The translations under genes and the position numbers were made by a program. Below are positions 3,147 through 15,880 of a stretch of 64,000 nt of DNA, piece by piece; position 1 is the first letter of the stretch; every line of letters begins with the position of its first letter. The notes under the pieces are model-generated. The model had not been told where the DNA came from. It searched no databases and saw only the letters and a program-made list of their open reading frames with translations. Source of the DNA: Methyloversatilis sp. (lineage in GTDB: Bacteria > Pseudomonadota > Gammaproteobacteria > Burkholderiales > Rhodocyclaceae); NCBI RefSeq assembly GCF_965284615.1, contig NZ_OZ260098.1:2732318-2796317 (forward strand). The letters run 5' to 3'.

Positions 3147-4118
3147 TTAGGAGGAAAAATTACCCTCGCGCCCGCCGGCCAGCGCCCGCGTCAGCGCCGG
3201 CACGGCCTCGAAGATGTCTGCCACCAGCCCGTAGTCGGCAATGCCGAAGATGGGTGCGTCGGCGTCCTGGTTGATGGCGACGATGACACGCGAATCCTTC
3301 ATACCGGCCACGTGCTGGATGGCGCCGGAAATGCCCACCGCGATGTACAGCTCGGGCGCGACGACGCGCCCGGTCTGGCCGACCTGGCTGTCATTGCCGA
3401 CGAAGCCGGCATCGACCGCGGCGCGGCTGGCGCCGAGGGCGGCGTTCAAGGTGTCGGCCAGCGGTTCGAGCAGGCGGCGGAAGTTGTCGGCGCTGCCCAA
3501 TGCGCGGCCGCCCGACACCACCACACGTGCGCTGCCCAGGTCCGGGCGTCCGCCCTGCACCTGCTGGCGCGCGATCAGACGCGAGCAGGCCGGATCGGTG
3601 GCAGCGGCCAGCGGCAGCACCGGGCAATCGCCGCCGGTGGGCGCCGCGGCAAACGCGGTCGCGCGCACGGTGAGCACCTTCAGCGCATCGAGCGATTGCA
3701 CGGTGACGAGCACGTTGCCGGCGTAGATCGGGCGCACGAAGGTATCGGACGATTCGATGCGCACGACGTCGGTGATGGGGGCCACACCCAGCCGCGCCGC
3801 CACCCGCGGCAGCACGTTGCGGGCAAAGCCGCCGGCCGCCGCGACCACGTGCGTGTATTGATCCGCCGCACCGGCCAGCACCGCGCGCAGCAGTTCGGTC
3901 AGCGGCTCGGCCAGCTGATCGGCGTAGTGCGCGGCGTCGGCGTGCAGCACGCGGGCGACACCGGCGATCCGGCGCGCCTGTCCGGCCACGGCGTCGCAGT
4001 CATGACCGGCCACCAGCAGATCGATCTCGCCACCGCACTGCAGCGCCGCCGTGACCGCATGCAGCGTGACCGGGTGCAGCACGGCGTTGTCGTGCTCGGC
4101 AATCACCAGGGTTTTCAT
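3147..4118 (-). CDS. etfA: Electron transfer flavoprotein alpha subunit
   Basis: [50 protein letters not shown]. Confidence 0.95.
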
Positions 4119-4129
4119 CGCATCTCTCC

Positions 4130-4879
4130 TCAGATCACCTGCGCCTCGGCGCGCAGGCGTTCCATCAGCTGGGCCACGCTGTCAACGCGCACGCCCGGTG
4201 TGCGCGCCGGCGGCGGCGCCATGTGCAGCGTGCGCAGGCGTGGCGCGACATCGACGCCCAGCGATTCGGGCGTCACGCTGTTGACCGGCTTCTTCTTCGC
4301 CTTCATCAGATTGGGCAGCGACACGAAGCGCGGCTCGTTCAGGCGCAGGTCGGTGGTGAGCACCGCAGGCAGCGTCAGCGCCAGCACTTCGCTGCCGCCG
4401 TCGATCTCGCGCGTCACTTCGATGTGGCCGTCACCGGGCAGCAGTTTCGACGCGTTGGTCGCCTGCGGCCAGTCGAGCAGCGCGGCCAGCATCTGGCCGG
4501 TCTGGCCGGCGTCGTCGTCGATTGCCTGCTTGCCGCAGATCACCAGTTGCGGCTGCTCGCGCTCACACAACGCATGCAGCAGGCGGGCCACGGCCAGCGG
4601 TTGAAGTTCGGCCGCGGTATCGACCAGCAAGGCGCGGTCCGCCCCCATCGCGAGCGCGCTGCGCAGCGTGTCCTGACAGGCGGCGACGCCGCAGGACACG
4701 ACCACCACCTCGGTGGCGACGCCGGCCTCCTTCAGCCGCACGGCCTCCTCCACCGCGATCTCGTCGAACGGGTTCATCGCCCGCTTGGCGCTGCCGATGT
4801 TGACATCGCTGCCATCGGCCAGCACGCGCACCTTCACGTTGTGATCGACCACGCGCTTCACCGCCACCAGCACCTTCAT
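4130..4879 (-). CDS. etfB: Electron transfer flavoprotein beta subunit
   Basis: MKVLVAVKRVVD, MNPFDEIAVEEAVRLKE, GKQAIDDDAGQTGQMLA, DLRLNEPRF. Confidence 0.95.
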   Translation of the reverse strand: MKVLVAVKRVVDHNVKVRVLADGSDVNIGSAKRAMNPFDEIAVEEAVRLKEAGVATEVVVVSCGVAACQDTLRSALAMGADRALLVDTAAELQPLAVARLLHALCEREQPQLVICGKQAIDDDAGQTGQMLAALLDWPQATNASKLLPGDGHIEVTREIDGGSEVLALTLPAVLTTDLRLNEPRFVSLPNLMKAKKKPVNSVTPESLGVDVAPRLRTLHMAPPPARTPGVRVDSVAQLMERLRAEAQVI

Positions 4880-5172
4880 GACACGCCCTCCTCCAGCTCG
4901 CGCAGATAGGCCCACGGATAGATGCCGCGCCGGTGGCCGTCGGAGAACACGAGGTTCAGGCCGGCGTCCGCCATCGCGTGCGCTTCGGTAAGCACCACCC
5001 CGCTGCAATCCTCGGGGGCGGCACCGGCGCGCGCCGCCTTCGTGCAGAAGGCGCAGCGGCAGCGCGCGCGCAGCAGCGCGTGCGGCAGCGCGCTCTCGCT
5101 GCCGTCGTTCCACTCGATGCGCAGCAGGCGCGACGCGCTGTGCACGGTGACCGACCGCGGCAGCGCGCTCAC
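4876..5172 (-). CDS. DUF971 / gamma-butyrobetaine-hydroxylase-like N-terminal domain protein
   Basis: LRIEWNDG...LLRARCRCAFC...LNLVFSDGHRRGIYPWAYLREL; GTG start overlaps the upstream stop (GTGA). Confidence 0.85.
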   Translation of the reverse strand: MSALPRSVTVHSASRLLRIEWNDGSESALPHALLRARCRCAFCTKAARAGAAPEDCSGVVLTEAHAMADAGLNLVFSDGHRRGIYPWAYLRELEEGVS

Positions 5173-6047
5173 AGCATCGCTCCCACGCCCTCGGCGCCGA
5201 CGTGCCAGTCGTGCCCGGCGAGTCCGCCCTCCTTCAGTTCTCCACCCATGGCGGCGAGGCTTTCTTCGCGGATGAGCGCCTTCAACTGGCGGTGCAGCGC
5301 GAGGAAGGTGGGCGACGAGGTCATGTCGGGCGTGCGCGGGCGCGGCAGCGGCACCGGGATTTCCGCCTTGATGCGGCCGGGGCGCGCGGTCATCACGTAG
5401 ATCTTGTCCGACAGGAAGATGGCTTCCTCGATGTCGTGCGTAATGAACAGCACCGACAGCTGCAGCTGCTGCCACATATTGGTCAGGATCTCCTGCATCA
5501 CCACGCGGGTCTGCGAATCGAGCGCGCCGAAGGGCTCGTCCATCAGCATCACCTGCGGGCTGGTGGCCAGCGCGCGGACGATGCCGACGCGCTGCTTCAT
5601 GCCGCCCGAAAGCTGGTCCGGATAGTGGTTCTCGAAGGACAGCAGGCCAGCCAGGCCGAGCAGCGTGCGCGCCTTCACTTCGCGCGTGCTGCGGCTCACG
5701 CCCTGCATCTTCAGGCCGAACTCGACGTTCTGCCGCACGCTGAGCCAGGGGAACAGCGAATACTGCTGGAACACCACGCCACGGTCGGCACCCGGCGCGG
5801 TCACGGCACGGCCATCGACGGTGACCGTGCCCTCGTCGGCGCGCAGGAAGCCGGCGACGATGTTCAGCAGCGTTGACTTGCCGCAACCGGACGGTCCGAC
5901 GATGGACACGAACTCGCCCGGCCTCACGTCCAGCGACACGTTCTTCACCGCGTCGAAGGGCACGCCGTTCTGCGTGAAGCGGATGTTCACGTCACGGATG
6001 TCGATGTGGCCGGTGGCCGATCGGGTCTGTACGGTCGATGCGTTCAT
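5169..6047 (-). CDS. ABC transporter ATP-binding protein, nitrate/sulfonate/taurine family
   Basis: GPSGCGKST, LSGGMKQRV, LMDEPFGALD, VLFITHDIEEA. Confidence 0.95.
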   Translation of the reverse strand: MNASTVQTRSATGHIDIRDVNIRFTQNGVPFDAVKNVSLDVRPGEFVSIVGPSGCGKSTLLNIVAGFLRADEGTVTVDGRAVTAPGADRGVVFQQYSLFPWLSVRQNVEFGLKMQGVSRSTREVKARTLLGLAGLLSFENHYPDQLSGGMKQRVGIVRALATSPQVMLMDEPFGALDSQTRVVMQEILTNMWQQLQLSVLFITHDIEEAIFLSDKIYVMTARPGRIKAEIPVPLPRPRTPDMTSSPTFLALHRQLKALIREESLAAMGGELKEGGLAGHDWHVGAEGVGAML

Positions 6048-7012
6048 CGCGAGCTCTCCTTTCCGCTGCTTGCCTGCCAGGGCATCAGCAGCCGGCCGAG
6101 CAGGCGGATGCCACCGCTGCACACGAGGCCGAGCACGCCGATCACCAGCATGCCGATGACGATGTTCGAGTACTCGATCAGCGAGTACGCCTCCCAGGTG
6201 AAGTAGCCCACGCCGTACTGACCGGAAATCATTTCCGCGGCAATCAGCGACACCCAGGCCACGCCCATGCCCACCGCCAGACCGGTGAAGATGTGCGGCA
6301 TCGCACCGCGCAGCACCACCTGCGTCATCAGCGCGAACTCGGTGGCACCGAGACAGCGCGCCGCCCGCACCAGCACCGCATCCATCGACGCCACGCCGTG
6401 CATGGTGTTGAGCAGGATGGGGAAGAAGGCGCCGATGAAGGTGATGAACACGATGCTGGTTTCGGTGGTCGGCCACAGCATGATGGAGATCGGCACCCAG
6501 GCGATGGCCGGGATCGGGCGCAGGATTTCCATCGCCGGGAACAGCAGGCTGCGCACCTGACGGTAGCGCCCGATCAGCAAGCCGAGCGTCACGCCGAGCA
6601 CGGTGGCGATGGCGAAGCCCAGCATGATGCGACGCAGGCTCAGCATCACGTGCGTCGTGAAGCCCTTGTTGCCGAACAGGTTCAGCGCGTCGCTGAATAC
6701 CTCGACCGGCCCCGGCACGTTGGTGAAGCGGATGTAGAACACCCAGCGGTAGGTGGTGGCCAGGTGCCAGAAGCCGATCAGCAGCACGATGGACAGGGCA
6801 CCCAGCGCCAAGGTGGGCAGGCCGCGGCGCAACGTGCGCCCCAGCCGCTGCGCCGGCGTCAGCCGGGGCGGTGCGGCGACGGCCGGGGCGGCGGGCGCCC
6901 CGCCGGGCACCGCGACCGGCGCCACCGCGCGCACCGGCGCGGGTACGTCGGCCGGCACGGCGTCCGGCGGGGCGGCGTCATCGATCGAGTGCATCCTCAT
7001 GACGGTTGACAT
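6044..7012 (-). CDS. ABC transporter permease, nitrate/sulfonate/taurine family
   Basis: LRPIPAIAWVP, EAA-loop-like AARCLGA, LIAAEMI. Confidence 0.93.
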   Translation of the reverse strand: MSTVMRMHSIDDAAPPDAVPADVPAPVRAVAPVAVPGGAPAAPAVAAPPRLTPAQRLGRTLRRGLPTLALGALSIVLLIGFWHLATTYRWVFYIRFTNVPGPVEVFSDALNLFGNKGFTTHVMLSLRRIMLGFAIATVLGVTLGLLIGRYRQVRSLLFPAMEILRPIPAIAWVPISIMLWPTTETSIVFITFIGAFFPILLNTMHGVASMDAVLVRAARCLGATEFALMTQVVLRGAMPHIFTGLAVGMGVAWVSLIAAEMISGQYGVGYFTWEAYSLIEYSNIVIGMLVIGVLGLVCSGGIRLLGRLLMPWQASSGKESSR

Positions 7013-7015
7013 GGC

Positions 7016-8458
7016 TCACTTCCTCACGGTGGCGATGGCCAGTGCATCGGCGTAGCTGCCGAGCTTTCCGCCATGGGCGGCGGCATGCGCCTCGGCATCC
7101 TTCTTCAGCAGGAAGGGCGTGATGGCCGCACTTCCCTTGCCGCCCAGCGAGTAGAAGGCCTTGTCGGCGAACAGCTTGATCTTGAAGCTCTGGTCGAACA
7201 CGAAGGCCACACCCACCTTCTTGCCCGCCTTGGTCGCCGCATTGACCGCCGCCAGCGTGCATTCGGCCGACTTGTAGGCGGTCAGCGCGCCGCCTTCGAT
7301 CCACACCTCACCGGCTTCGCGCGGCTTGTCGATGCTGCCGCCGCACAGCGGGTCGGTCCCCGAGATTTCGTAACTGGCGAAGCTCGCCTTCTGCTTGGTG
7401 TAATCCAGCCCCAGTTCCTTGTAGGCCTGCATCAGGTAGGACTCGTCCACCCAGGCGTCGGCGTCGAACTCCTTCACCCGGCCCATGCGCTGCAGCACGC
7501 CGTGGTCGTACTTCACCGTCTCGACCCACTTCGGCTTGATGGTCGGATCCAGCGTATGCACGCCGCCCGGGCCGAGGAACATGTAGGCCACTTCCTTCTC
7601 GACCCGCGTCCACTCCTCGATCTTGGTCGCTGCCTCGACCGGGTTCTTGCGCACCCACTCGTTCGCCTCCATCAGCGCCTTGATGTAGGCGACGACGAAC
7701 TCCGGATATTTCTTCGCGAAGTCCTCGCGCACGACGACGCCGTGGAAGGTGGGCACCTTGGTTTCGACGCCGTCGAAGATCTTGCGTGCGAAACCGCGGT
7801 AGGGCAGCAGCTCGGCGAAGGGCACGAAGTCGGCGTGACCGTCGATGCGCTTCTCCTGCAGGCTGGAGGTGCCGACTTCCGGGCTCTGGCTCGACAGTTC
7901 CCAGACATCGCTCTTCCAGCCCTTGTCCTCCATCGCCTTCAGCAGCATGCCGTGCGCGGCCGAGCCGAAGGGCACCGACACCTTCTTGCCCTTCAGGTCG
8001 GACAGCTGGTAATAGGGCGAATCCTTGTGCACCACGATGCCGTTGCCGGCACCGTCGGCGTTGTAGGCAATCAGTGCGATCAGCCGGCTCTTCGTTTCCG
8101 GGCTGGCCTGGAAGGTGGCGCCATTCACCAGCAGCGGATAGTCGCCCATCATGCCGATCTGCAGCGTGTTGGCCACCATGCCGTTGGTCACCGGCGGGCC
8201 AGAGGTGAAGTTCTGCCATTCGAACTTGAACTGGATGTCCTTGTACTTGCCGGTCTTCGGCAGGTGCTTTTCGAGCAGACCCAGTTCCTTGATGACGATG
8301 CCGCCGGTCACCGTATTGGTCGTCGTGTTCTGCGTGCCGATGCCGACGGTGACGACCTCGGCCAGTGCGCCCGTGGCACAGCTGCCCAGCGCTGCGCCGA
8401 GCAGCAATGCGCGGGTCGTGCCGGTGACGCGACCCAGGGTCTTCTTCATAACGTTCAT
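7016..8458 (-). CDS. ABC substrate-binding protein (SsuA/TauA/NrtA-like) with C-terminal extension
   Basis: Signal peptide; NFTSGPP, GMMGDYP, VPFGSAAHG; GAGG RBS upstream of the ATG at 8458. Confidence 0.88.
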   Translation of the reverse strand: MNVMKKTLGRVTGTTRALLLGAALGSCATGALAEVVTVGIGTQNTTTNTVTGGIVIKELGLLEKHLPKTGKYKDIQFKFEWQNFTSGPPVTNGMVANTLQIGMMGDYPLLVNGATFQASPETKSRLIALIAYNADGAGNGIVVHKDSPYYQLSDLKGKKVSVPFGSAAHGMLLKAMEDKGWKSDVWELSSQSPEVGTSSLQEKRIDGHADFVPFAELLPYRGFARKIFDGVETKVPTFHGVVVREDFAKKYPEFVVAYIKALMEANEWVRKNPVEAATKIEEWTRVEKEVAYMFLGPGGVHTLDPTIKPKWVETVKYDHGVLQRMGRVKEFDADAWVDESYLMQAYKELGLDYTKQKASFASYEISGTDPLCGGSIDKPREAGEVWIEGGALTAYKSAECTLAAVNAATKAGKKVGVAFVFDQSFKIKLFADKAFYSLGGKGSAAITPFLLKKDAEAHAAAHGGKLGSYADALAIATVRK

Positions 8459-8532: not shown

Positions 8533-8862
8533 TCAGGCGCTCTCGAACAGGTAATGCCTCTTGTCCTTCACGTTGGCCCACTCGTCCGCCTCGGGCAGCG
8601 GATCGCGCGCCGCGGTGATCAGCGGCCATTCGGTGGCGAGGCGGGCGTTGATGGCCACGAACTCGATCTGGTCGGCCGGCAGATCCTCCTCGGCGAAGAT
8701 CGCCTCGGCCGGACACTCCGGAACGCAGACGCCGCAGTCGATGCAGGCCGCGGGGTCGATGACGAGAAATTCCGGCCCTTCGTGAAAGCACTCGACCGGA
8801 CAGACCGACACGCAGTCGGTGTACTTGCAGCGCACGCAGGCTTCGGTGACGACGAAGGTCAT
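8533..8862 (-). CDS. fdxA: 7Fe ferredoxin (Azotobacter FdI/FdxA type)
   Basis: [24 protein letters not shown]...[16 protein letters not shown]. Confidence 0.85.
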
Positions 8863-9830: not shown

Positions 9831-10064
9831 TCAGCGCAGCAGATAGGGAATCGACACGCTGACCGCACCGGTCGGGCAGTCGGTTTCGCACGGCAGGCAG
9901 TACCAGCACTCGTCGAACTTCATGAAGGCCTTCTTGGTGAGCATGTCGATGGCGAGCACGTCGAGCGGGCAGACGTTGACGCACACCGTGCAGCCTTTCT
10001 CCGCGATGCATTTGTCGTTGTCGACACTTACCGGCACCTGGGTCGGCGTAGCAGCGATGGTCAT
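9831..10064 (-). CDS. Small 2x[4Fe-4S] ferredoxin, AprB-like
   Basis: CIAEKGCTVCVNVCP and CWYCLPCETDCP; directly downstream of the AprA-like gene. Confidence 0.88.
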   Translation of the reverse strand: MTIAATPTQVPVSVDNDKCIAEKGCTVCVNVCPLDVLAIDMLTKKAFMKFDECWYCLPCETDCPTGAVSVSIPYLLR

Positions 10065-10095: not shown

Positions 10096-11826
10096 TCAGG
10101 CGGCTTCGGCGTTGCGGGCGACGCGCAGGCGCTGGTAGGCGCTGCGTTCCTCTTCGTCGATCGGCACGATGTAGGGCTCGATCGGCTTCTTGCGCATCTG
10201 CATGCGGCCGTCCTCGCCCTTGCTCAGCAGCGTGTGGCAGAACCAGTTCTCGTCGTCGCGCTCGGGGTGATCGACGAAGTAGTGGTAGAGGCCCCAGCGG
10301 CTTTCGGTGCGGAACAGCGAGGCGCGCGCGGCCATTTCGGCGCAGTCGAGAATGGAATGCGCTTCCATCGCGCGCATCAGTTCGTGCGGGTTGGAGGCGA
10401 ACATGGCTTCGGTGTCCTCGCGGATTTCGTCGAAGCGGCGCAGCGCGATTTCGTACTTGCGGGTGATCTTGGGCGGCTGCAGGTAGTCGTTCACCAGGCG
10501 GCGCGTCTTGTATTCGATCTGGAAGGGCGTGAGGCCGTCGGTGCGACCGAGCGGCGCCAGGATGCGCGCCTCCTCCGCCGCGACGTCGCCAGCGCTGACC
10601 GCACCCAGTCCGTGCTCGGCGCAGTAGGCGGCAGCGTTCTCGCCACACAGCCGGCCGTAGACGAAGGCGCCCAGCATGTAGTTGTGCGGCACGCTGGCGC
10701 AGTCGCCGGCGGCGTAAAGCCCCGGCACCGAAGTCGCGCCACGCGCGTCGGTGTGGATGCCGGACGCGCTGTGACCGCTGCAGAAGCCGATTTCCGAGAT
10801 GTGCATCTCGACCATCTGCTTGCGGTAGTCGTTGCCGCGCTTTTCGTGGAAGCGGCCGCGGCTCGGGCGTTCGTTGGTGTGCAGGATGTGCTCGATCTCG
10901 CTGATGGTCTCCTCGGCGAGGTGGTCGAGCTTGAGGAAGACAGGACCGTTGCCGCCTTCCAGTTCGTTGTAGAACTCCATCATCATCTGGCCGCTCCAGT
11001 AGTCGCACTCGATGAAGCGCTCGCCCTTGGAGTTGGCGGTGAAGCCGCCGAACGGACCGGTCACGTAGGCACAGGCCGGACCGTTGTAGTCCTTGATCAG
11101 CGGATTGATCTGGAAGCACTCGAGATTGGCCAGGTCGGCGCCGGCGTGATAGGCCATCGCGTGACCGTCGCCGCAGTTGGTCGGGTTCTCGTAGGTGCCC
11201 ATCAGGTAGCCGGAGGCGGGCAGACCGATGCGGCCGGCCGCGCCGGTGCTGAGCACCGCCGCCTTGGTGCGGATGACATAGACGTCGGCGGTGCGGCAGT
11301 CGAAGCCCATCACCGCGACCACTTCACCGCTTTCGCCGGTCAGCACGCGGGTGACGACGACGCGGTTGGTCACCTCGACGCGCGCCTTCTTCAGCTGGCG
11401 GTAGAGGATCTTCTTCATGTGGTGACCTTCGGGCATCGGCAGCACGTAACTGCCCAGGTGATGCACCTTGCGCACCGCGTAGTCGCCGGTTTCGTCCTTC
11501 TCGAACTTGACGCCCCAGCGGTCCAGCTCGTTGATCATGTCGAAGCTGTTGGCGGCGTAGGCCATCACCGCTTCCTGATCGACGATGCCGTCGTTGGCGA
11601 TGGTGATCTCCTTGACGTACTGCTCCGGCGTCGCGTGCCCGGGAATGACGGCGTTGTTGAGACCGTCCATGCCCATCGAGATGGCGCCCGAACGCTTCAC
11701 GTTGGCCTTGTCGATCAGCAGCACGCGCAGCTTGGGGTTCTTCTCCTTGGCCTTGACTGCGGCCATCGGGCCGCCGGTACCACCGCCGATGACGACGAGG
11801 TCGAATTCCATGTCGATGCGTTTCAT
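10096..11826 (-). CDS. FAD-dependent oxidoreductase of the SdhA/FrdA/AprA superfamily, AprA-like
   Basis: GGGTGGPMAA dinucleotide fold; KANVKRSGAISMG resembles the AprA N-terminus; GLYAAGD; RTESRWGLYH. Confidence 0.88.
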   Translation of the reverse strand: MKRIDMEFDLVVIGGGTGGPMAAVKAKEKNPKLRVLLIDKANVKRSGAISMGMDGLNNAVIPGHATPEQYVKEITIANDGIVDQEAVMAYAANSFDMINELDRWGVKFEKDETGDYAVRKVHHLGSYVLPMPEGHHMKKILYRQLKKARVEVTNRVVVTRVLTGESGEVVAVMGFDCRTADVYVIRTKAAVLSTGAAGRIGLPASGYLMGTYENPTNCGDGHAMAYHAGADLANLECFQINPLIKDYNGPACAYVTGPFGGFTANSKGERFIECDYWSGQMMMEFYNELEGGNGPVFLKLDHLAEETISEIEHILHTNERPSRGRFHEKRGNDYRKQMVEMHISEIGFCSGHSASGIHTDARGATSVPGLYAAGDCASVPHNYMLGAFVYGRLCGENAAAYCAEHGLGAVSAGDVAAEEARILAPLGRTDGLTPFQIEYKTRRLVNDYLQPPKITRKYEIALRRFDEIREDTEAMFASNPHELMRAMEAHSILDCAEMAARASLFRTESRWGLYHYFVDHPERDDENWFCHTLLSKGEDGRMQMRKKPIEPYIVPIDEEERSAYQRLRVARNAEAA

Positions 11827-11912: not shown

Positions 11913-12692
11913 TCAACTTCGGTCTATGCGCAGGCGGTACTGGAAGGCATCGCCGCGGTAGTAGAGGAATTCGAAATCGATGGGCCGGTCGTCGGCCCAG
12001 GTCAGGCGTTCGATGCGCAGCAGCGGCGAGGCTTCCGCGATGTCGAGATGACGGGCGAGCGACTCGTCGGCCGAGATCGCCTCGATCTGCACGTCGGCGT
12101 GCGTGAGGTTGCGGCCGAGGTCGTTTTCGAGAATGACGAAGATGTCGCGCGTGGCCAGGTCTTCCTGGGTCAGCCGTTCGCCGATGTCCGGCGGGAAGTA
12201 GCTCACGTTGACCGAGATGGGTTCGCGGTTCAGGTAGCGCAGGCGCTGTATCTCGAACACCGGCGCTTCCGGCTTCAGCTGCAGCCGCTGGGCCACCACG
12301 GCACTGGCGGCGACCGGCTTCGCGCTGAGCAGCAGCGAGTAGGTTTCGTAGCCGGAAGTGGACATCGCCTCGCCGAAACCCTGCAGCCGCGACAGGCTCT
12401 GGAAGGCCTTGGGCTTGGCGACGAAGCTGCCCTTGCCCATCACCTTGAAGATGAGCCCCTCCTTCTGCAGGTCGCCCAGTGCCTGCCGTATCGTGATGCG
12501 GCTGACATCGAATGCCGACATCATCTGGCTCTCCGACGGCATCTGCGAATGCGGCGGGTAACTGCCGTCGAGAATGCGCCGGCGCAGGATTTCGCGGATC
12601 TGCGTGTACAGCGGCATCTGCGATACCGGCGACAGCGCGTCCTCGACCTCCGCCGCGCCCGGGGGCGCGATCTGCTTGCGGTGGGGTGCCAT
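11913..12692 (-). CDS. GntR-family regulator, HutC/UTRA subfamily
   Basis: PLYTQIRE...MPSESQMMSAFDVSRITIRQAL...GKGSFV wHTH followed by a UTRA domain. Confidence 0.93.
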   Translation of the reverse strand: MAPHRKQIAPPGAAEVEDALSPVSQMPLYTQIREILRRRILDGSYPPHSQMPSESQMMSAFDVSRITIRQALGDLQKEGLIFKVMGKGSFVAKPKAFQSLSRLQGFGEAMSTSGYETYSLLLSAKPVAASAVVAQRLQLKPEAPVFEIQRLRYLNREPISVNVSYFPPDIGERLTQEDLATRDIFVILENDLGRNLTHADVQIEAISADESLARHLDIAEASPLLRIERLTWADDRPIDFEFLYYRGDAFQYRLRIDRS

Positions 12693-12711
12693 GTTCGAGC
12701 TCCTGTTCAAG

Positions 12712-12735
12712 AACCTGTTATGACGGGTCATGTCA
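12712..12735. promoter_or_regulatory. Palindromic operator, copy A (candidate site for the adjacent GntR)
   Basis: ACCTGTTATGACGGGT, an imperfect version of the perfect palindrome at 13690-13705. Confidence 0.65.
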
Positions 12736-12752: not shown

Positions 12753-12778
12753 TTTTTTCGCTCCGCACAACACGTTCC

Positions 12779-12791: not shown

Positions 12792-12819
12792 TGACTGCGA
12801 TTTTCGACGACAGACCGGT

Positions 12820-13635
12820 TCAGAACCGGCTATCGGATGCACCGCATTGCTGCACCGCCACAGTGCCCTGCACCAGTGCGACCGCATGTACCGGCCAGGC
12901 TGCGAGCGCACCGGTCGCCATCAGCAGGCACAGCACGACGCGACGGAAATGACGCGGATCCAGCCACCGGTAGAGCCGCTCGCCGATCAGTCCGCCGCCG
13001 TGAAAGAGCGGCGCCAGCAGCAGCGACAGGCCGAACAGCCCTGACAGCACGATGGCGATCAGCGCCAGCGGGTAGAGGCAGCCGAAATAGACGAGGAAGC
13101 TGGCGCGCGCCCGGTGGCTGTCGGTTTCCACGCCCAGCAGATAGAGGATGGCCGGCGGTCCGCTGACACCGCCGAAGCCGGTCAGCACGCCGCTGAACAG
13201 ACCGGCGGAGATCGAGCCCGCCCGACTGCGGCCGCGCACCAGACGGGCGCCGGTCAGCAGCACCACAGCACTGGCGATCACCGCGACGCCGATCACCTGG
13301 CCGAACAGCCGCGCCGGCAGCACGCTGACCAGCCACAGCCCGAGTGGAATGCCGGCACAGGCGGCGCCCAGCATGGGCAGCAGCACCCGGTGATCGACCA
13401 GCCGGCGCACCGACGGCGCCAGTGCATGCGTCAGCGGCAGCGCGTTCAGCAGCGTCACGATGCACAGCGTGTCGCGCGCCGACGCCACCGTAGAGAGCAG
13501 CGGCGCCATCAGCAGCGCCGCACCGAAGCCGGTCATGCCGCGCAGCACGCCGCCGGCGATCACCGCGCCGGCAATCACCGACCAGCTCGCGAGCGCGCGG
13601 TCCGGCCACAGCGTGTTCAGCAGCGAAGCATCCAA
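12820..13635 (-). CDS. TauE/SafE (TSUP) family sulfite-exporter-like membrane protein
   Basis: GGVLRGMTGFGAALLMAP and GVLTGFGGVSGPP repeats; likely TTG start at 13635 behind GGGGAG (the ORF track starts at 13698). Confidence 0.85.
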   Translation of the reverse strand: MDASLLNTLWPDRALASWSVIAGAVIAGGVLRGMTGFGAALLMAPLLSTVASARDTLCIVTLLNALPLTHALAPSVRRLVDHRVLLPMLGAACAGIPLGLWLVSVLPARLFGQVIGVAVIASAVVLLTGARLVRGRSRAGSISAGLFSGVLTGFGGVSGPPAILYLLGVETDSHRARASFLVYFGCLYPLALIAIVLSGLFGLSLLLAPLFHGGGLIGERLYRWLDPRHFRRVVLCLLMATGALAAWPVHAVALVQGTVAVQQCGASDSRF

Positions 13636-13688
13636 TCGGCTCTCCCCGGCGGGACGGACCGCCTGCGAATTCGGCAGCGTCTGCGCCC

Positions 13689-13712
13689 AACCTGTCATGA
13701 CAGGTCATGTCG
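13689..13712. promoter_or_regulatory. Palindromic operator, copy B
   Basis: Perfect 16-bp palindrome ACCTGTCATGACAGGT at 13690-13705; 26/30 identity with 12712-12741. Confidence 0.65.
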
Positions 13713-13729
13713 AGCAAAAGCCGGACCAG
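13713..13729 (-). promoter_or_regulatory. sigma54-type promoter of the tauE-like gene
   Basis: Minus strand TGGTCCGGCTTTTGC (GG-N10-GC), at the same offset from the operator as in copy A. Confidence 0.6.
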
Positions 13730-13863
13730 CACGCGCACACGCAACCCACCGGTCGTCAAACCCTGTGCAGTCGCAGCTTCTGTCGGTGCGCGGCGGTTGA
13801 TGCGCAGTGCCGCGGCAGTCCGGCACGGTGCGCCGGCCTCGGCGACGCCCTGCTTGCGTGCGT

Positions 13864-14874
13864 TCATGCCAGCGCTCCGAGGCTGACCAGGCCGAAGCCG
13901 GCAAGCAGCAGCCACAGCCACAGCAGCGCAGCCAGTGCCCACACACGCCAGCCCGCATGCGCCATGTCGGCCAGCCGGGTGTTGGCACCGAGCGCCGCCA
14001 GACCGACCGCCAGCAGCGCCTGCGCGGCTTCCGCACCGGCCGCCTGCAGCCACAGCGGCAAACGCCCCGACGCGTTGAGCGCCATCATCACGACGAAGCC
14101 ATACAGGAAGAGCGGCACGCCCGGGCTGCGCAGTGACGTGGCGCCCGGCGCGCGCAGTCCGGCGGCGATCAGCATCACCACCGGCGCCAGCAGCATCACG
14201 CGCATCATTTTCTCGACCAGCGCACCGGCGGCCGCCTCGGGTCCGGCCGCCGCCGCACCGGCAACGACGTGGCCGAGCTCATGCACTGAAAGACCGACCC
14301 AGAGGCCGAACGACAGATCGTCGAGACCGCTCAGCGGCCGCAGCAGCGGCAACAGATACATGCCCAGCGTGCCGAACACGACCACCGCCAGCACCGCCGC
14401 CGACACATGGCGAGCGCGCGCACCGATCACGCTGTCGGCAGCCGCCACCGCCGCCGCACCGCAGATGGCGCTGCCGCAGCCGATCAGCACCGCGGCCTGG
14501 GTGTCGAGCCCGAGCCGACGGCCCAGCGTCAGCGCCAGCGCCAGCGTGCTGAGCACGATGACCAGCGCCATCGCCAGCCCGCTCCAGCCCACGCTGCCCA
14601 GTTCATCGATGCCGATGCGCAGACCGTACAGCGCGATGCCGGCGCGCATCAGCGTGCCGCGCGCCAGACGGAATCCGTCGGCGCCGCGCGTCGGCAGCGC
14701 GGGCCACAGATTGCCGACCACGATGCCCAGCGCCACCGCCAGCGGCAGCCAACCGAAGCCGTGCGCCGTTACGCCCGGCACCGCAGACAGCGCCGCCGCG
14801 GCAGCCGCAACGGCCACCGACGCGACAAGGCCGGTCGGCAGGCTGGAAGCAGTGAGGGCGGTGGTCGAATTCAT
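13864..14874 (-). CDS. yeiH: YeiH family (putative sulfate/sulfite exporter) membrane protein
   Basis: LMRAGIALYG, LIGCGSAICGAAAV, WVGLSVHELGHVV, KMMRVMLLAPV. Confidence 0.88.
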   Translation of the reverse strand: MNSTTALTASSLPTGLVASVAVAAAAAALSAVPGVTAHGFGWLPLAVALGIVVGNLWPALPTRGADGFRLARGTLMRAGIALYGLRIGIDELGSVGWSGLAMALVIVLSTLALALTLGRRLGLDTQAAVLIGCGSAICGAAAVAAADSVIGARARHVSAAVLAVVVFGTLGMYLLPLLRPLSGLDDLSFGLWVGLSVHELGHVVAGAAAAGPEAAAGALVEKMMRVMLLAPVVMLIAAGLRAPGATSLRSPGVPLFLYGFVVMMALNASGRLPLWLQAAGAEAAQALLAVGLAALGANTRLADMAHAGWRVWALAALLWLWLLLAGFGLVSLGALA

Positions 14875-14957
14875 GGATGCGTCGCGGGCTGCAGGAAAGT
14901 GAGTGCAGCGTAAGCGGCGCGCCATTCATTCTTCTATATCATGCAAATCACTGATCG

Positions 14958-14972
14958 ATTACCTTGGGTAAT
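14958..14972. promoter_or_regulatory. LysR-type box in the yeiH/lysR divergent intergenic region
   Basis: ATTACC-N3-GGTAAT dyad containing T-N11-A. Confidence 0.55.
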
Positions 14973-14974
14973 GC

Positions 14975-15880
14975 ATGAATCTGCATCTTCTGCGCATCTA
15001 CGTGAAGGTCGTCGAGGTCCAGAGCTTTTCGCGCGCAGCGGAGGCGCTGGACATCACGCAGCCCGCCGTGTCGAAAGCGGTGCGCGAACTCGAATCCCAG
15101 CTCGAAACGGTGCTGCTGGACCGCCGCGGCAAGACCTTCCGGCCGAGTGAATCGGGTCGGGCACTCTATGAATACGGGCGCAGCATCCTGGCACTCGAAC
15201 GCGAGGCGACCGAAACCATCCGCGCCTACAGTTCGCTCGAACGCGGGCGGCTCACGATAGGCGCCAGCACCACCATCGCCACCTACTGGCTGCCGTCCTT
15301 CCTGGTCGATTTCCACGCCCGCCACCCTCAGGTCGAACTGCAGGTGATCAGCGGCAACACCCGGCAGATCGCCGACCTGCTGCTCGATTGCCGGGTTGAC
15401 GTGGCGCTGGTCGAAGGCGACGTGGACGACGCGCGGTTGAACCGCCGCATCTGGCGGCGCGACGAGATGGTCATCATCGCGCCACGCGACGCCGAACTGC
15501 CGCCAGGTGGCGCGCTGCGCCCGGCCGATCTGGCCGACCACAGCTGGATCGTGCGCGAACGCGGTTCCGGCAGCCGTGCCGCCACCGACCGCGTGCTCGA
15601 CGAAATGGGCCTGACGCCGGCGCGCACGATAGAGGTGGGCAGCAACGAAGCCATCGTGCAGACAGTCGCCGCCGGCCGCGGTCTGGGCATGGTGCCGCGC
15701 ATCTGCGCCCGCGACCAGCTGGCGCTTGGCCGCATCCGCCGGCTGCATCCGGGCGGCGCCGCGATCCAGCGCACGCTCTACCGCATCCGCCTGCCCGAGC
15801 GCCCGATCAGCCCCGCCGCCCTCGCCTTCGAGGCGCTGATCGCGGACACGCACACGGCCACGGACGCGGCGTCCGAGTGA
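14975..15880 (+). CDS. LysR-family regulator, YeiE/CysL-like
   Basis: SFSRAAEALDITQPAVS; GASTTIATYWLP; REKGS-like RERGSGSR; divergent from yeiH. Confidence 0.88.
   Translation: MNLHLLRIYVKVVEVQSFSRAAEALDITQPAVSKAVRELESQLETVLLDRRGKTFRPSESGRALYEYGRSILALEREATETIRAYSSLERGRLTIGASTTIATYWLPSFLVDFHARHPQVELQVISGNTRQIADLLLDCRVDVALVEGDVDDARLNRRIWRRDEMVIIAPRDAELPPGGALRPADLADHSWIVRERGSGSRAATDRVLDEMGLTPARTIEVGSNEAIVQTVAAGRGLGMVPRICARDQLALGRIRRLHPGGAAIQRTLYRIRLPERPISPAALAFEALIADTHTATDAASE

What the first reader, a model, noticed from the sequence alone, without database searches (positions are those of the whole stretch)
3147..15880. Candidate uncharacterised sulfur-bond-cleaving system: AprAB-like reductase with sulfonate-type importer, ETF and sulfite exporters
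Seen: one co-oriented, tightly spaced minus-strand run, partly ATGA/GTGA-coupled, of gntR, AprA-like flavoprotein, AprB-like ferredoxin, HEAT protein, 7Fe ferredoxin, SBP/permease/ATPase (TauABC/SsuABC family), DUF971 and etfB-etfA, next to tauE-like and yeiH/lysR genes. Known: AprAB cleaves the S-O bond of APS through a flavin-N5-sulfite adduct and normally works with Sat/Qmo/Dsr. None of those partners, and no TauD dioxygenase or SsuD/MsuD monooxygenase, is encoded in this window. Inference: an imported sulfonate, sulfamate or sulfate-ester-like compound is cleaved by O2-independent flavin chemistry, with ferredoxin/ETF electron transfer, releasing sulfite that is then exported. I recall a similar core string in Pseudomonas (PA2292-PA2299 region) as functionally unassigned; that recollection needs checking. 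The added ETF, second ferredoxin and two exporters would be an expanded version.
Basis: partly seen in the sequence, partly recalled or inferred. Interest (0 to 1): 0.85.

Follow-up and report, generated by a model that had tools for sequence, protein, structure and literature searches.

The report
Ferredoxin-fed AprA-like reductase uptake module
The genes are real and form a widespread but unstudied bacterial module that imports a small sulfonate-like compound and most likely reduces it with ferredoxin electrons on an enzyme related to sulfate-reducing APS reductase. The ETF genes and one of the two "exporters" are local additions, not part of the conserved system.

Summary
The gene string exists as described: gaps run from -4 to 86 nt, with three 4-nt stop/start overlaps. 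A survey of 80 genomes, taken from more than 590 species with a match, gives the conserved core. It is a GntR/HutC regulator, an AprA-related flavoprotein (NCBIfam NF006131), a 77-aa 2x[4Fe-4S] ferredoxin, a HEAT protein, a NitT/TauT ABC importer and DUF971.

ETF was found in 0 of 80 loci, only in the window's own lineage. TauE and YeiH recur only sporadically. TauE does carry the module's conserved 20-bp GntR operator here, as it does in Azoarcus and Sulfuriferula.

The flavoprotein is sister to APS/PAPS reductases (90% bootstrap) and lies outside SdhA and NadB. It has lost two of the four AprA active-site invariants (Arg265 to Leu, Trp234 to Tyr) and the AMP channel, so it is not an APS reductase. 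It is also not AsfA (22% identity).

The binding protein keeps the sulfonate-contacting positions of TauA. Related loci place ferredoxin-reducing systems (Fpr, Rnf, an Nfn-like fusion) in the cluster; Rnf and three Nfn-like copies also sit behind the same operator. This favours a ferredoxin-driven reduction.

The substrate and the release of sulfite remain inferred. I found no published function.

The parts
13688..13707 (.). Operator-like palindrome CAACCTGTCATGACAGGTCA at the tauE start, in the yeiH-tauE spacer
   Evidence: A position weight matrix built from 63 sites upstream of gntR in other genomes scores this site 25.8. It is the best site in the whole 64-kb window; the third-best site scores 6.3. 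An operator also sits just upstream of tauE in L004, L037 and L098-L100.
12820..13698 (-). TauE/SafE (TSUP) family membrane protein, a putative anion (sulfite/sulfonate) exporter
   Evidence: Pfam PF01925, 86 bits against a cut-off of 32.6. It lies next to the module only in the window's lineage, Azoarcus indigens L004, Sulfuriferula L037 and a Pseudanabaena plasmid. It carries the module's operator.
12711..12730 (.). Operator palindrome upstream of gntR (GAACCTGTTATGACGGGTCA on the plus strand)
   Evidence: PWM score 22.2. An equivalent site lies 13-135 nt upstream of gntR in most loci.
11913..12692 (-). GntR-family regulator of the HutC subfamily (HTH plus UTRA effector domain)
   Evidence: Pfam GntR and UTRA. 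Present in 74 of 80 loci directly upstream of the flavoprotein gene. Also present in the actinobacterial version L081.
10096..11826 (-). FAD flavoprotein, 576 aa, of the AprA/PAPS-reductase-related family NF006131 (PRK08275). Proposed catalytic subunit.
   Evidence: NF006131 scores 1063 bits (cut-off 587); AprA models score 280 and 164 bits, below their cut-offs. The best PDB match is PAPS reductase alpha 8a8o_A, E 2e-53. Tree. Active-site mapping.
9831..10064 (-). 77-aa 2x[4Fe-4S] ferredoxin, partner of the flavoprotein. It corresponds to the AprB ferredoxin core without the tail.
   Evidence: Pfam Fer4_7 and related models; aprB TIGR02060 scores only 34.6 bits against a cut-off of 135.65. 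Present in 79 of 80 loci directly after the flavoprotein gene.
8873..9820 (-). HEAT-repeat (PBS-lyase-like) protein, probably a scaffold or partner of the flavoprotein
   Evidence: HEAT_2, 168 bits. It matches the C-terminal part of NF010374/PRK13800, a flavoprotein-HEAT fusion. The fusion was seen in Streptomyces P0122/L081. Present in 58 of 58 full-length loci.
8533..8862 (-). 7Fe ferredoxin FdxA, proposed electron carrier to the enzyme
   Evidence: NF045490 FdxA_Protbact, 158 bits against a cut-off of 135. Present in 17 of 80 loci, all with the window-like gene order. In related loci it is followed by Rnf or an Nfn-like reductase.
7016..8458 (-). Periplasmic substrate-binding protein, 480 aa: an SsuA/TauA-like core plus a C-terminal extension of about 120 aa with weak NosL likeness
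   Evidence: SsuA_fam scores 121 bits, below its cut-off of 163.5. Best PDB matches are TauA 6ssy and SsuA. Sulfonate-contact positions are conserved. NosL scores E 4e-4.
6044..7012 (-). ABC permease of the NitT/TauT family
   Evidence: BPD_transp_1; best NCBIfam matches are NtrB, TauC and SsuC, all below their cut-offs. Present in 61 of 80 loci.
5169..6047 (-). ABC ATPase of the NitT/TauT family
   Evidence: ABC_tran; best NCBIfam matches are SaoA, TauB and NtrCD, all below their cut-offs. Its start overlaps the permease stop as ATGA.
4876..5172 (-). DUF971 (GBBH-like N-terminal domain) protein, a probable Fe-S cluster maintenance factor for the module
   Evidence: PF06155, 72 bits. Present in 51 of 58 full-length loci. 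Replaced by Mrp/NBP35 in cyanobacterial plasmids. DUF971 has been linked to Fe-S maintenance by mutant cofitness (bioRxiv 10.1101/072470).
4130..4879 (-). EtfB, canonical group-1 electron transfer flavoprotein beta subunit. Lineage-specific addition with an unproven role in the module.
   Evidence: Best PDB matches are Paracoccus 1efp_B (273 bits) and human ETF (263), against 95 bits or less for bifurcating ETFs. Its start overlaps the DUF971 stop as ATGA, here and in the 95%-identical relative L100. Absent from 80 of 80 other loci.
3147..4118 (-). EtfA, electron transfer flavoprotein alpha subunit. Lineage-specific addition.
   Evidence: Pfam ETF and ETF_alpha. Absent from 80 of 80 other loci.
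13864..14925 (-). YeiH/PF03601 membrane protein. A neighbour that is probably its own unit with the divergent LysR gene at 14975-15880.
   Evidence: PF03601, 233 bits. No operator site. PF03601 genes do recur next to the module in L002, L003, L008, a Pseudanabaena plasmid, and next to the sister-clade flavoprotein P0126.

Best explanation
The window holds a complete copy of a widespread, horizontally mobile and so far uncharacterised uptake-and-reduction module.

Proposed working:
1. A HutC-type GntR repressor binds a conserved 20-bp palindrome. It is presumably released by the substrate.
2. A NitT/TauT ABC importer brings in a small polar oxyanion. The binding protein keeps the sulfonate-contacting positions of TauA/SsuA but not the amine-binding ones.
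3. In the cytoplasm a two-subunit iron-sulfur flavoenzyme acts on it. This is the AprA/PAPS-reductase-related FAD protein plus its 77-aa 2x[4Fe-4S] ferredoxin, helped by a HEAT-repeat partner and matured by DUF971. It reduces the compound with two electrons delivered by reduced ferredoxin (here FdxA).
4. The most likely chemistry is reductive cleavage of an X-SO3 bond. The sulfite released is assimilated or, at high flux, exported by the co-regulated TauE.

Shown: the gene content, its conservation, the operator, the family placement, the loss of the APS-specific residues, and the co-location of ferredoxin-reducing systems.

Inferred: the direction of electron flow, the sulfur nature of the substrate, sulfite as product, and any role of the ETF pair. 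ETF sits where other genomes have Fpr or an Nfn-like ferredoxin reductase.
For: (1) Conservation. Flavoprotein plus ferredoxin occur in 80 and 79 of 80 loci, HEAT in 58 of 58, GntR in 55 of 58, DUF971 in 51 of 58 and the ABC importer in about 48 of 58 full-length loci. The actinobacterial version has the same parts, with HEAT fused to the flavoprotein.

(2) Family placement. NF006131 scores 1063 bits. The best solved relative is M. thermolithotrophicus PAPS reductase, followed by A. fulgidus AprA. In the neighbour-joining tree the family is sister to the AprA/PAPSR clade at 90% bootstrap, with SdhA and NadB outside at 95%. Asn74 and His398 of AprA are kept (N57, H352).

(3) Binding protein. 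The closest solved relatives are TauA and SsuA. TauA's sulfonate contacts (Gln30, Gly61, Gly79, Thr132; PMC6906117) map to the motifs IGTQ, S86-G87, the MGDYP loop (G105 itself varies) and S166-A167, which are conserved across 62 orthologues.

(4) Electron input. Fpr follows DUF971 in L001, L002, L003 and L008. A second copy of the operator precedes rnfABCDGE in L042. It also precedes a 1150-1170-aa GltD-like plus PyrK/SudB-like fusion in L017, L019 and L028. The same fusion occurs in L013, L029, L057 and on A. caldus pTcM1. The sister-clade flavoprotein P0140 is paired with a GltD-like protein.

(5) Sulfur context. The operator sits in front of tauE in four lineages. A Pseudanabaena plasmid has flavoprotein-Fd-HEAT-Mrp-YeiH-TauE. 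A Nostoc plasmid has two extra SsuA-like binding proteins, metX and O-acetylhomoserine sulfhydrylase nearby.

(6) Fe-S helper. DUF971 is exchanged for Mrp/NBP35 in cyanobacteria.

(7) Transcription. RNA contigs of a related strain span the gene borders from gntR to the ATPase gene.
Against: - Arg265 and Trp234, two of the four invariant AprA residues that polarise the sulfate or sulfite at N5, are Leu243 and Tyr212 here. The AMP channel is replaced. Flavin-N5-sulfite chemistry is therefore not guaranteed.
- The module occurs in sulfur oxidisers that should never be short of sulfur: Thiobacillus, Sulfuriferula, Halothiobacillus, Acidithiobacillus caldus.
- The regulator is a substrate-type GntR, not a CysB/SsuR-type sulfur-starvation regulator.
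- The exporters are next to the module in only a small minority of loci.
- The binding protein scores below the SsuA and TauA family cut-offs.
- The canonical ETF in this window is normally an electron acceptor of dehydrogenases.
- No experiment on any member was found.
Confidence: 0.42

Rival explanations
1. The substrate is not a sulfur compound. The module imports another small anion (a nitro/nitronate compound, carboxylate, N-heterocycle or similar) and reduces it at the flavin. The likeness to AprA reflects shared ancestry only.
For: The catalytic Arg265 and the AMP channel are lost. Sister-clade flavoproteins P0132 and P0140 are paired with TctCBA carboxylate-type transporters. NitT/TauT binding proteins also carry nitrate, cyanate, bicarbonate and pyrimidine precursors (general knowledge of the family). 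The module occurs in sulfur-rich lifestyles. The P. aeruginosa metabolic model labels PA2294-96 a nitrate transporter, by homology only.
Against: The sulfonate-contacting positions of TauA/SsuA are conserved in the binding protein. TauE is under the module's operator. Cyanobacterial plasmid contexts are sulfur-related. The nearest characterised enzymes all act on sulfite or sulfate esters.
Confidence: 0.22
2. It runs in the oxidative direction. The flavoprotein dehydrogenates the imported compound (for example a sulfinate, sulfite plus an acceptor, or a C-C or C-N bond next to the sulfonate). Electrons leave through the ferredoxins to ETF (in this organism) or to NAD(P)+ through Fpr or the Nfn-like enzyme.
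For: AprAB is reversible and works oxidatively in sulfur oxidisers (PMC2211403). The module is common in sulfur oxidisers. The window's ETF is the canonical type that accepts electrons from dehydrogenases, and it is translationally coupled to the module.
Against: Rnf, Fpr and Nfn-like enzymes in aerobic heterotrophs normally make reduced ferredoxin. A dedicated, operator-controlled rnf operon (L042) is hard to explain for an electron sink. ETF is absent from 80 of 80 other loci. The 7Fe ferredoxin FdxA has a very low potential (general knowledge), which makes it a poor acceptor for most dehydrogenations.
Confidence: 0.15
3. Like AsfAB in arylsulfonate use, the flavoprotein and ferredoxin are only an auxiliary electron-transfer module, with a dedicated importer. 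The actual bond cleavage is done by an oxygenase encoded elsewhere (Ssu/Msu type).
For: The architecture is the same as the asf locus: an FAD_binding_2 flavoprotein, a small 2x[4Fe-4S] ferredoxin and an SsuA-like binding protein with its ABC transporter. I saw this in C. metallidurans CH34. The asf system is described as a reductase/ferredoxin 'tool-kit' that complements ssu (PMC4267179). In the tree AsfA falls with the AprA-like group rather than with SdhA, at 95%.
Against: Identity to AsfA is only 22%, and the published asfA primers match neither the window nor the 80 loci. The flavoprotein is extremely conserved (at least 71% identity across Proteobacteria), with an invariant capping domain, a catalytic-type His and invariant Cys residues. 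This is typical of a substrate-binding catalyst, not a mere electron shuttle. The module occurs in organisms such as cyanobacteria and chemolithotrophs as a self-contained unit, and no oxygenase is conserved nearby.
Confidence: 0.13
4. It is an ordinary APS or PAPS reductase of sulfate assimilation or dissimilation.
For: The best solved relatives are PAPS and APS reductases. One database record names a Pseudomonas orthologue 'adenylylsulfate reductase subunit alpha'.
Against: AprA models score far below their cut-offs (280 against 557; 164 against 642). Arg265, Trp234 and the AMP-binding residues are replaced. The ferredoxin lacks the AprB tail. No sat, qmo, dsr or cysC gene is conserved nearby. 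An ABC importer with a sulfonate-type binding protein makes no sense for APS.
Confidence: 0.02

Closest known systems
Dissimilatory APS reductase AprAB and the AprAB-like PAPS reductase of Methanothermococcus thermolithotrophicus (PDB 1jnr/2fja, 8a8o)
   Same: It has the same fold and two-subunit layout: a non-covalent FAD subunit of the fumarate-reductase superfamily plus a 2x[4Fe-4S] ferredoxin subunit. These are the closest solved relatives (E 2e-53 and 5e-37; Foldseek first hit 8a8o). The family is sister to them in the tree. Asn74 and His398 equivalents and the AprA-type 'PH' motif after GLYAAGD are kept.
   Different: Identity is only about 25-35%. Arg265 is Leu and Trp234 is Tyr. The AMP/adenine channel (Tyr95, Glu141, Gln145, Val273, Gly274, Leu278) is replaced by family-specific invariant motifs (VHHLGSYVLPMPEG, INPLIKDYNGPACAYV). 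There is a Cys two residues before the catalytic His. The ferredoxin lacks the AprB tail. The partners are a HEAT protein, DUF971, an ABC importer and a GntR regulator instead of Sat/Qmo/Dsr or APS kinase.
AsfAB(C), the reductase/ferredoxin/binding-protein 'tool-kit' for arylsulfonate desulfonation (Pseudomonas putida S-313, Variovorax, Cupriavidus)
   Same: It has the same kind of parts: a superfamily flavoprotein, a small dicluster ferredoxin and an SsuA-like binding protein with a TauT-family ABC transporter. Its distribution in soil Beta- and Gammaproteobacteria and Actinobacteria is similar. Like the present module, its mechanism is not understood biochemically.
   Different: It is a different protein family: 22% identity, AsfA scores 56 bits on NF006131, and the primers do not match. 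AsfR is a LysR regulator. The CH34 locus has no HEAT or DUF971 gene. The asf system depends on SsuD/SsuE oxygenase chemistry.
TauABC/SsuABC alkanesulfonate importers
   Same: The transporter family is the same. The binding protein's best solved relatives are TauA and SsuA, and the Gln/Gly/Gly/Ser-Thr sulfonate contacts are conserved.
   Different: All three components score below the equivalog cut-offs. TauA's amine ligands Glu106 and Asp205 are Asn139 and His239. There is an extra C-terminal domain of about 120 aa with weak NosL likeness. No TauD or SsuD gene lies in the cluster.
Pseudomonas aeruginosa PA2292-PA2299 (annotated only as probable oxidoreductase, ferredoxin, ABC transporter and regulator)
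   Same: The 8-gene Pseudomonas form of the module (gntR-flavoprotein-Fd-SBP-permease-ATPase-HEAT-DUF971) matches the published annotations of PA2299, PA2298, PA2297 and PA2296-PA2294 in order.
   Different: I did not compare with PAO1 sequence directly. The window has the other gene order (HEAT and FdxA before the transporter), plus FdxA, TauE and ETF.

Membership tests
NCBIfam NF006131 / PRK08275 (generic name 'fumarate reductase/succinate dehydrogenase flavoprotein subunit') | Whole-protein HMM score above the curated cut-off (587 bits) | tested here: met
   1063 bits over residues 5-573.
Dissimilatory APS reductase AprA / AprAB-like PAPS reductase | HMM score above the curated cut-offs (NF005331 557 bits; TIGR02061 641.75 bits) | tested here: not met
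   280 and 164 bits.
Dissimilatory APS reductase AprA / AprAB-like PAPS reductase | [quoted passage not shown] | tested here: not met
   N57 and H352 are kept. W234 is Y212 and R265 is L243, both invariant in the family. The alignment is stable in phmmer and MAFFT.
Dissimilatory APS reductase AprA / AprAB-like PAPS reductase | AMP/adenine channel residues (Tyr95, Trp144, Phe261, Val273, Gly274, Phe277, Leu278; Glu141, Gln145) | tested here: not met
   They map to E73, Y127, Q239, A251, C252, V255 and T256. The 141-145 loop is replaced, with a 4-residue insertion.
Dissimilatory APS reductase AprA / AprAB-like PAPS reductase | AprB partner: a 2x[4Fe-4S] domain plus a C-terminal tail that wraps AprA | tested here: not met
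   The partner is 77 aa, ferredoxin core only. aprB TIGR02060 scores 34.6 bits against a cut-off of 135.65 and covers model positions 2-64 of 132.
Dissimilatory APS reductase AprA / AprAB-like PAPS reductase | Genomic partners for sulfate activation and electron supply (Sat, Qmo, Dsr or APS kinase) | tested here: not met
   No such gene is among the families conserved across the 80 loci or in window positions 1-20000.
Dissimilatory APS reductase AprA / AprAB-like PAPS reductase | APS- or PAPS-dependent sulfite formation | not testable with these tools
   Needs an enzyme assay.
Succinate dehydrogenase / fumarate reductase flavoprotein (SdhA/FrdA) and L-aspartate oxidase NadB | HMM scores above cut-off, and grouping with bona fide members in a tree | tested here: not met
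   TIGR01812 scores 172 bits against 567; nadB scores 107 against 453. E. coli SdhA and Ralstonia NadB lie outside the AprA-like group at 95% bootstrap.
Succinate dehydrogenase / fumarate reductase flavoprotein (SdhA/FrdA) and L-aspartate oxidase NadB | Dicarboxylate-site motifs (the His of 'FHPT', the Arg of 'GANRLGSNSL') and the covalent-FAD His of 'RSH'. These motifs are from my own knowledge of the family. | tested here: not met
   The window has 'INPL', 'SVPHNYMLGAF' and 'RSGA' at these places.
AsfA/AsfB arylsulfonate desulfonation proteins | Sequence membership: similarity to an AsfA that the published asfA primers recognise | tested here: not met
   The primers hit C. metallidurans CH34 AsfA/AsfB but neither the window nor the 80 loci. 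BLASTP identity is 22%, E 7e-12.
AsfA/AsfB arylsulfonate desulfonation proteins | Requirement for growth with arylsulfonates as sulfur source | not testable with these tools
   Needs mutants and growth tests.
TauABC / SsuABC sulfonate ABC importers | Equivalog HMM cut-offs for the binding protein, permease and ATPase | tested here: not met
   SsuA_fam 121 against 163.5; TauA 73 against 304; TauC 139 against 342; SsuC 124 against 347; TauB 255 against 357; SsuB 173 against 395.
TauABC / SsuABC sulfonate ABC importers | Conserved sulfonate-coordinating positions of the binding protein (TauA Gln30, Gly61, Gly79, Thr132) | tested here: met
   Q43 of IGTQ, S86-G87, the MGDYP loop and S166-A167 occupy these places. 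The motifs are conserved in 62 orthologues; G105 itself varies, but the contact is made by the backbone.
TauABC / SsuABC sulfonate ABC importers | Measured binding or transport of a sulfonate | not testable with these tools
   Needs ITC/DSF or uptake assays.
Canonical (group 1, non-bifurcating) electron transfer flavoprotein | Closest to Paracoccus and human ETF rather than to bifurcating ETFs, with the 'DLRLNEPR..LPN.MKAKKK' recognition loop | tested here: met
   1efp_B scores 273 bits and 1efv_B 263, against CarD 95 and 4kpu_B 84. The motif DLRLNEPRFVSLPNLMKAKKK is present in the translation.
TauE/SafE (TSUP) and YeiH (PF03601) membrane proteins | Pfam gathering scores | tested here: met
   PF01925 scores 86.4 against 32.6; PF03601 scores 232.7 against 24.5. 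Export of sulfite or sulfate by these particular proteins is not testable here.

The most novel reading that the evidence does not exclude
The module encodes a third, oxygen-independent route of organosulfur use in ordinary aerobic bacteria, among them Pseudomonas aeruginosa, Acinetobacter baumannii, Burkholderia, rhizobia and cyanobacteria. In this reading it is a ferredoxin-driven iron-sulfur flavoenzyme, evolved from APS reductase, that reductively cleaves the C-S (or X-S) bond of an imported sulfonate and releases sulfite without TauD/SsuD-type oxygenases or glycyl-radical enzymes.
Probability: 0.28. Interest if true: 0.85.

Novelty: new variant of a known kind. Interest (0 to 1): 0.66.

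Why it matters
The flavoprotein is one of the most conserved proteins of unknown function I met here. It is at least 71% identical across Beta-, Gamma- and Alphaproteobacteria and about 55-60% identical in Actinobacteria and cyanobacteria. It occurs in more than 590 species representatives, often on plasmids. Every database record calls it 'fumarate reductase/succinate dehydrogenase flavoprotein subunit', apart from one that names a Pseudomonas orthologue 'adenylylsulfate reductase subunit alpha', and that label is almost certainly wrong.

If it is a ferredoxin-dependent desulfonating (or other X-SO3-cleaving) reductase, that would add a new enzyme class to the sulfur cycle. It would also explain sulfonate use where oxygenases cannot work.

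Even if the substrate turns out not to be a sulfur compound, the module is now sharply defined. The parts, the operator and the electron-input partners are known, and clear experiments follow in model organisms with existing mutant libraries.

Tried and rejected
(1) AsfA identity. I suspected the flavoprotein was AsfA of the arylsulfonate asfRABC system. The published primers and a direct comparison with the C. metallidurans CH34 AsfA/AsfB locus showed it is a different family.

(2) Literature. Searches for PA2292-PA2299, AprA-like proteins, and DUF971/HEAT/flavoprotein combinations found no functional study. They gave only transcriptome and Tn-seq table entries and a homology-based 'nitrate transporter' label. 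The SaoA/SaoP/SaoX models that hit the transporter belong to an unrelated selenoprotein system and score below cut-off.

(3) Direct check of PA2298. A homologue search with a P. paralcaligenes orthologue returned no P. aeruginosa entry among its best 120 hits. The PAO1 link therefore rests on published annotations only.

(4) Names of sister-clade proteins. All are generic.

(5) Riboswitches and other RNA. There was no credible Rfam hit in positions 1-20000. The simple promoter and terminator scan was uninformative.

(6) Structure models. The binding-protein model was too poor to use (pLDDT 56). The flavoprotein model (pLDDT 62, capping domain unresolved) confirmed only the superfamily fold, with PAPS reductase as first hit.

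(7) Other conserved neighbours. All-against-all clustering of ORFs from the 80 loci found nothing beyond the core.

(8) Bifurcating ETF. Rejected: the ETF is the canonical type.

(9) RNA evidence. Only assembled metatranscriptome contigs of a related strain were available. They are weak evidence for co-transcription and say nothing about inducing conditions.

Full report
**1. What is in the sequence**

The region has 64-72% G+C and many spurious long ORFs. Profile searches pick out one co-directional minus-strand string:
- YeiH 13864-14925 (PF03601)
- TauE 12820-13698 (PF01925)
- GntR with a UTRA domain 11913-12692
- a 576-aa FAD_binding_2 flavoprotein 10096-11826
- a 77-aa 2x[4Fe-4S] ferredoxin 9831-10064
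- a HEAT-repeat protein 8873-9820
- the 7Fe ferredoxin FdxA 8533-8862
- a 480-aa NMT1/SsuA-like binding protein 7016-8458
- an ABC permease 6044-7012
- an ABC ATPase 5169-6047
- DUF971 4876-5172
- EtfB 4130-4879
- EtfA 3147-4118

A divergent LysR gene lies at 14975-15880. From gntR to etfA the gaps are 86, 31, 10, 10, 74, 3, -4, -4, -4 and 11 nt. The three overlaps are ATGA or GTGA. One correction: the 'AprB-like' protein is only a ferredoxin core.

**2. Which genes belong together**

A pattern scan of one genome per species found more than 590 relatives of the flavoprotein. The best 80 loci, all at least 71% identical, were fetched with 10-kb flanks. tblastn with the window's proteins gave these counts in the 58 loci with full flanks:

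| Gene | Loci with it (of 58) |
|---|---|
| 77-aa ferredoxin | 58 |
| HEAT | 58 |
| GntR | 55 |
| DUF971 | 51 |
| ATPase | 50 |
| Permease | 48 |
| Binding protein | 47 |
| FdxA | 7 (17 of all 80) |
| YeiH | 3 (4 of all 80) |
| TauE | 1 |
| EtfA / EtfB | 0 |

Three layouts exist:
- The window-like order: gntR-flavoprotein-Fd-HEAT-fdxA-SBP-permease-ATPase-DUF971. It occurs in Variovorax, Polaromonas, Azoarcus, Sulfuriferula and Halothiobacillus.
- The Pseudomonas/Paraburkholderia order: gntR-flavoprotein-Fd-SBP-permease-ATPase-HEAT-DUF971.
- A version without the transporter.

All-against-all clustering of ORFs found no further conserved neighbour.

In Streptomyces the same parts occur with HEAT fused to the flavoprotein (925 aa). 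This fusion is the NCBIfam model NF010374. The family also sits on plasmids of rhizobia, Methylobacterium, Methylocystis, Acidithiobacillus caldus and cyanobacteria, and in Acinetobacter baumannii.

The 8-gene Pseudomonas form fits the published annotations of PA2299 (regulator), PA2298 (oxidoreductase), PA2297 (ferredoxin) and PA2296-PA2294 (ABC transporter). I could not compare with PAO1 sequence.

**3. The flavoprotein**

It scores 1063 bits on NF006131 (cut-off 587). It scores 280 and 164 bits on the two AprA models, 172 on SdhA/FrdA and 107 on NadB, all below their cut-offs.

The best solved relatives are the AprAB-like PAPS reductase of M. thermolithotrophicus (8a8o_A, E 2e-53) and A. 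fulgidus AprA (E 5e-37). SdhA and FrdA follow at about E 1e-25 to 1e-27. A moderate AlphaFold model (pLDDT 62) again finds 8a8o first.

I built a neighbour-joining tree with 100 bootstraps:
- The family itself has 100% support.
- It joins uncultured sister clades (36-42% identity) at 100%.
- That group is sister to the AprA/PAPSR clade at 90%.
- E. coli SdhA and Ralstonia NadB lie outside at 95%.

The active site is nevertheless not that of AprA. AprA has four invariant residues around the sulfate or sulfite at flavin N5: Asn74, Trp234, Arg265 and His398 (PMC2211403). The window keeps Asn (N57) and His (H352). It has Tyr212 in place of Trp and Leu243 in place of Arg, and both are invariant in the family.

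The AMP channel is replaced by family-specific invariant motifs. A Cys (C349) sits two residues before the catalytic His. This Cys also occurs in four of the six sister-clade sequences aligned (P0130, P0131, P0140, P0143), and one position earlier in P0132. It is absent from AprA and PAPSR. PAPSR-like proteins (P0161, P0195, P0203) keep the Arg. Plain APS or PAPS reduction is thus very unlikely.

**4. The importer**

The binding protein's closest solved relatives are TauA and SsuA. In TauA, taurine's sulfonate is held by Gln30 and by the backbone of Gly61, Gly79 and Thr132. Its amine is held by Glu106, Thr132 and Asp205 (PMC6906117).

These positions map as follows in the window protein:
- Sulfonate contacts: Q43 (IGTQ), S86-G87, the MGDYP loop (G105 itself varies), and S166-A167. 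The motifs are conserved across 62 orthologues of both gene orders.
- Amine ligands: N139 and H239, which are also conserved.

This fits a sulfonate-like head group on a small polar, non-amine body. It is not proof, because all three transporter components score below the Tau/Ssu equivalog cut-offs. A C-terminal extension of about 120 aa with weak NosL likeness is kept in length but not in sequence.

**5. Regulation**

A 20-bp palindrome, consensus xAACTTGTCATAACAAGTTx, lies 13-135 nt upstream of gntR in most loci; 63 sites were used to build the matrix. A weight matrix built from these sites finds just two strong sites in the whole 64-kb window:
- 12711-12730, in front of gntR (score 22.2)
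- 13688-13707, at the start of tauE (score 25.8)

The next best site scores 6.3. The same double arrangement occurs in Azoarcus indigens, in Sulfuriferula, and in the 95%-identical relatives L098-L100. TauE is therefore a regulon member in these lineages.

YeiH/LysR has no site and looks like the usual divergent pair. PF03601 genes nevertheless recur beside the module in three Burkholderiales genomes, in a Pseudanabaena plasmid, and beside a sister-clade flavoprotein.

**6. Direction of electron flow**

In other window-like loci the position after DUF971 or FdxA is occupied by ferredoxin-reducing machinery:
- An Fpr-type ferredoxin-NADP reductase in L001, L002, L003 and L008.
- A full rnfABCDGE operon behind a second operator in L042.
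- A 1150-1170-aa fusion of a GltD-like module and a PyrK/SudB-like module, which is the NfnAB/SudAB architecture. It lies behind a second operator in L017, L019 and L028. It is also present in L013, L029, L057 and on A. caldus pTcM1.
- The sister-clade flavoprotein P0140 is paired with a GltD-like protein.

Several independent ferredoxin-reducing systems sit in the cluster, some under the same operator. This argues that the enzyme consumes low-potential electrons, so I favour a reduction.

In the window's lineage the same position holds a canonical, non-bifurcating EtfBA. It overlaps the DUF971 stop and so is probably co-transcribed. Its role as donor, acceptor or mere passenger is unknown.

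**7. Fe-S helper and HEAT**

DUF971 has been tied to Fe-S cluster maintenance by cofitness with Mrp, BolA and YggX (bioRxiv 10.1101/072470). In cyanobacterial plasmids the DUF971 position is taken by an Mrp/NBP35 protein, which supports that role. The HEAT protein is probably a structural partner of the flavoprotein, given the actinobacterial fusion.

**8. Sulfur context elsewhere**

- Pseudanabaena pPg_02 has flavoprotein-Fd-HEAT-Mrp-YeiH-TauE, with a NitT/TauT transporter and a LysR gene upstream.
- Nostoc pNe_5 has two SsuA-like binding proteins, an FAD/metallo-beta-lactamase fusion, metX and O-acetylhomoserine sulfhydrylase around the module.
- In P. aeruginosa, PA2298 and PA2299 fall slightly (log2 -0.7) on N-acetylcysteine. 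This is weak evidence.

Against a pure sulfur-scavenging role: the module is frequent in sulfur oxidisers, and its regulator is not of the sulfur-starvation type.

**9. Comparison with known systems**

I tested whether this is the asfRABC arylsulfonate system (PMC4267179, PMC2864759). The published asfA primers find AsfA/AsfB on the C. metallidurans CH34 megaplasmid, next to an SsuA-like ABC transporter. They do not match the window or any of the 80 loci. AsfA is 22% identical to the window protein. The asf system is therefore an architectural analogue and not the same family.

The DiSCo 'AprAB-like' assimilatory clade corresponds to the PAPSR-like group, which keeps the Arg.

**10. Verdict**

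The finding is real and more than chance. It is better defined in others (operator, HEAT and DUF971 as fixed parts, ferredoxin-reducing partners).

My best explanation is a substrate-induced importer feeding a ferredoxin-driven AprA-derived reductase that probably releases sulfite from a small sulfonate-like compound. I hold it at about 0.4. The rivals are a non-sulfur substrate (0.22), the oxidative direction (0.15), an AsfAB-like auxiliary role (0.13) and a plain APS/PAPS reductase (0.02).

No function has been published in the open literature I could search. I class it as a new variant of the AprAB kind of iron-sulfur flavoenzyme, of solid interest because it is so widespread, so conserved and now directly testable.

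The organism is probably a Rhodocyclales bacterium. The best hits are Azoarcus and Parazoarcus at 88-91%, with synteny to A. indigens. It is found in freshwater, aquifer and soil metagenomes.

Noticed in passing
window 7016-7420 (C-terminal ~120 aa of the binding protein): The binding protein carries an extra C-terminal domain with weak NosL (copper-chaperone) likeness (E 4e-4). All orthologues keep the extra length (about 450-490 aa), but the sequence, including the two Cys, is poorly conserved. Some orthologues have a precomputed PF05573 hit. Its role is unknown.
   Followed up: partly
window 10096-11826 (residues C237, C252, C349): Three Cys are invariant in the flavoprotein family. C349 lies two residues before the catalytic-type His (CSGH). 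It also occurs in four of the six sister-clade sequences aligned (one position earlier in a fifth), but not in AprA or PAPS reductase (IVGGH). This hints at thiol-based chemistry.
   Followed up: partly
window 2140-3078 versus L098 537-1475: The response-regulator/GGDEF gene lies downstream of etfA in the window. In a 95%-identical relative it lies upstream of lysR. The block from lysR to etfA therefore appears to have been inverted or relocated between close relatives.
   Followed up: no
L028 6995-10513; L093 10574-14035; also L013, L017, L019, L029, L057: A 1150-1170-aa single-chain fusion of a GltD-like NAD(P)H/FAD/Fe-S module with a PyrK/SudB-like module (NfnAB/SudAB-like architecture) accompanies the module in seven loci. 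It scores 541 bits on NF005128, below the cut-off of 1072. It may be an uncharacterised ferredoxin reductase.
   Followed up: partly
L042 7081-12054: A complete rnfABCDGE operon sits directly after fdxA, behind a copy of the module's GntR operator, in a Thiohalomonadales genome. This would be an unusual case of an Rnf complex dedicated to a single catabolic or assimilatory module.
   Followed up: partly
L090 (C. metallidurans CH34 megaplasmid NC_007974, 922000-930000): The asf locus of CH34 was located by primer matching. AsfA is at L090 28213-29862 (-) and AsfB at 27881-28216 (-). Beside them are an SsuA-like binding protein, ATPase and permease (23389-26117) and an amidohydrolase-like 557-aa ORF. 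The PLSDB record carries no annotation there.
   Followed up: partly
L096 12-3358 (Acinetobacter baumannii record CM018764): About 7 kb upstream of the module lie genes for an MBL-fold hydrolase, a TIGR01244 phosphatase-like protein and a TSUP (TauE-family) transporter. This trio is typical of sulfide and persulfide detoxification. It may be coincidental.
   Followed up: no
window 1043-2104 and 15942-20039: The flanking genes are an ADP-ribosylglycohydrolase-family gene (plus strand) and a long purL (FGAM synthase) gene (minus strand). Neither is conserved next to the module in other genomes.
   Followed up: no
window 5579-12712 (RNA contigs of run X25): A metatranscriptome of a related strain (about 96-97% identity) has contigs spanning permease-SBP-fdxA-HEAT, HEAT-Fd-flavoprotein and flavoprotein-gntR at similar depth. 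The tauE and yeiH region has almost none. Assembled contigs are only weak evidence, and DNA carry-over cannot be excluded.
   Followed up: partly
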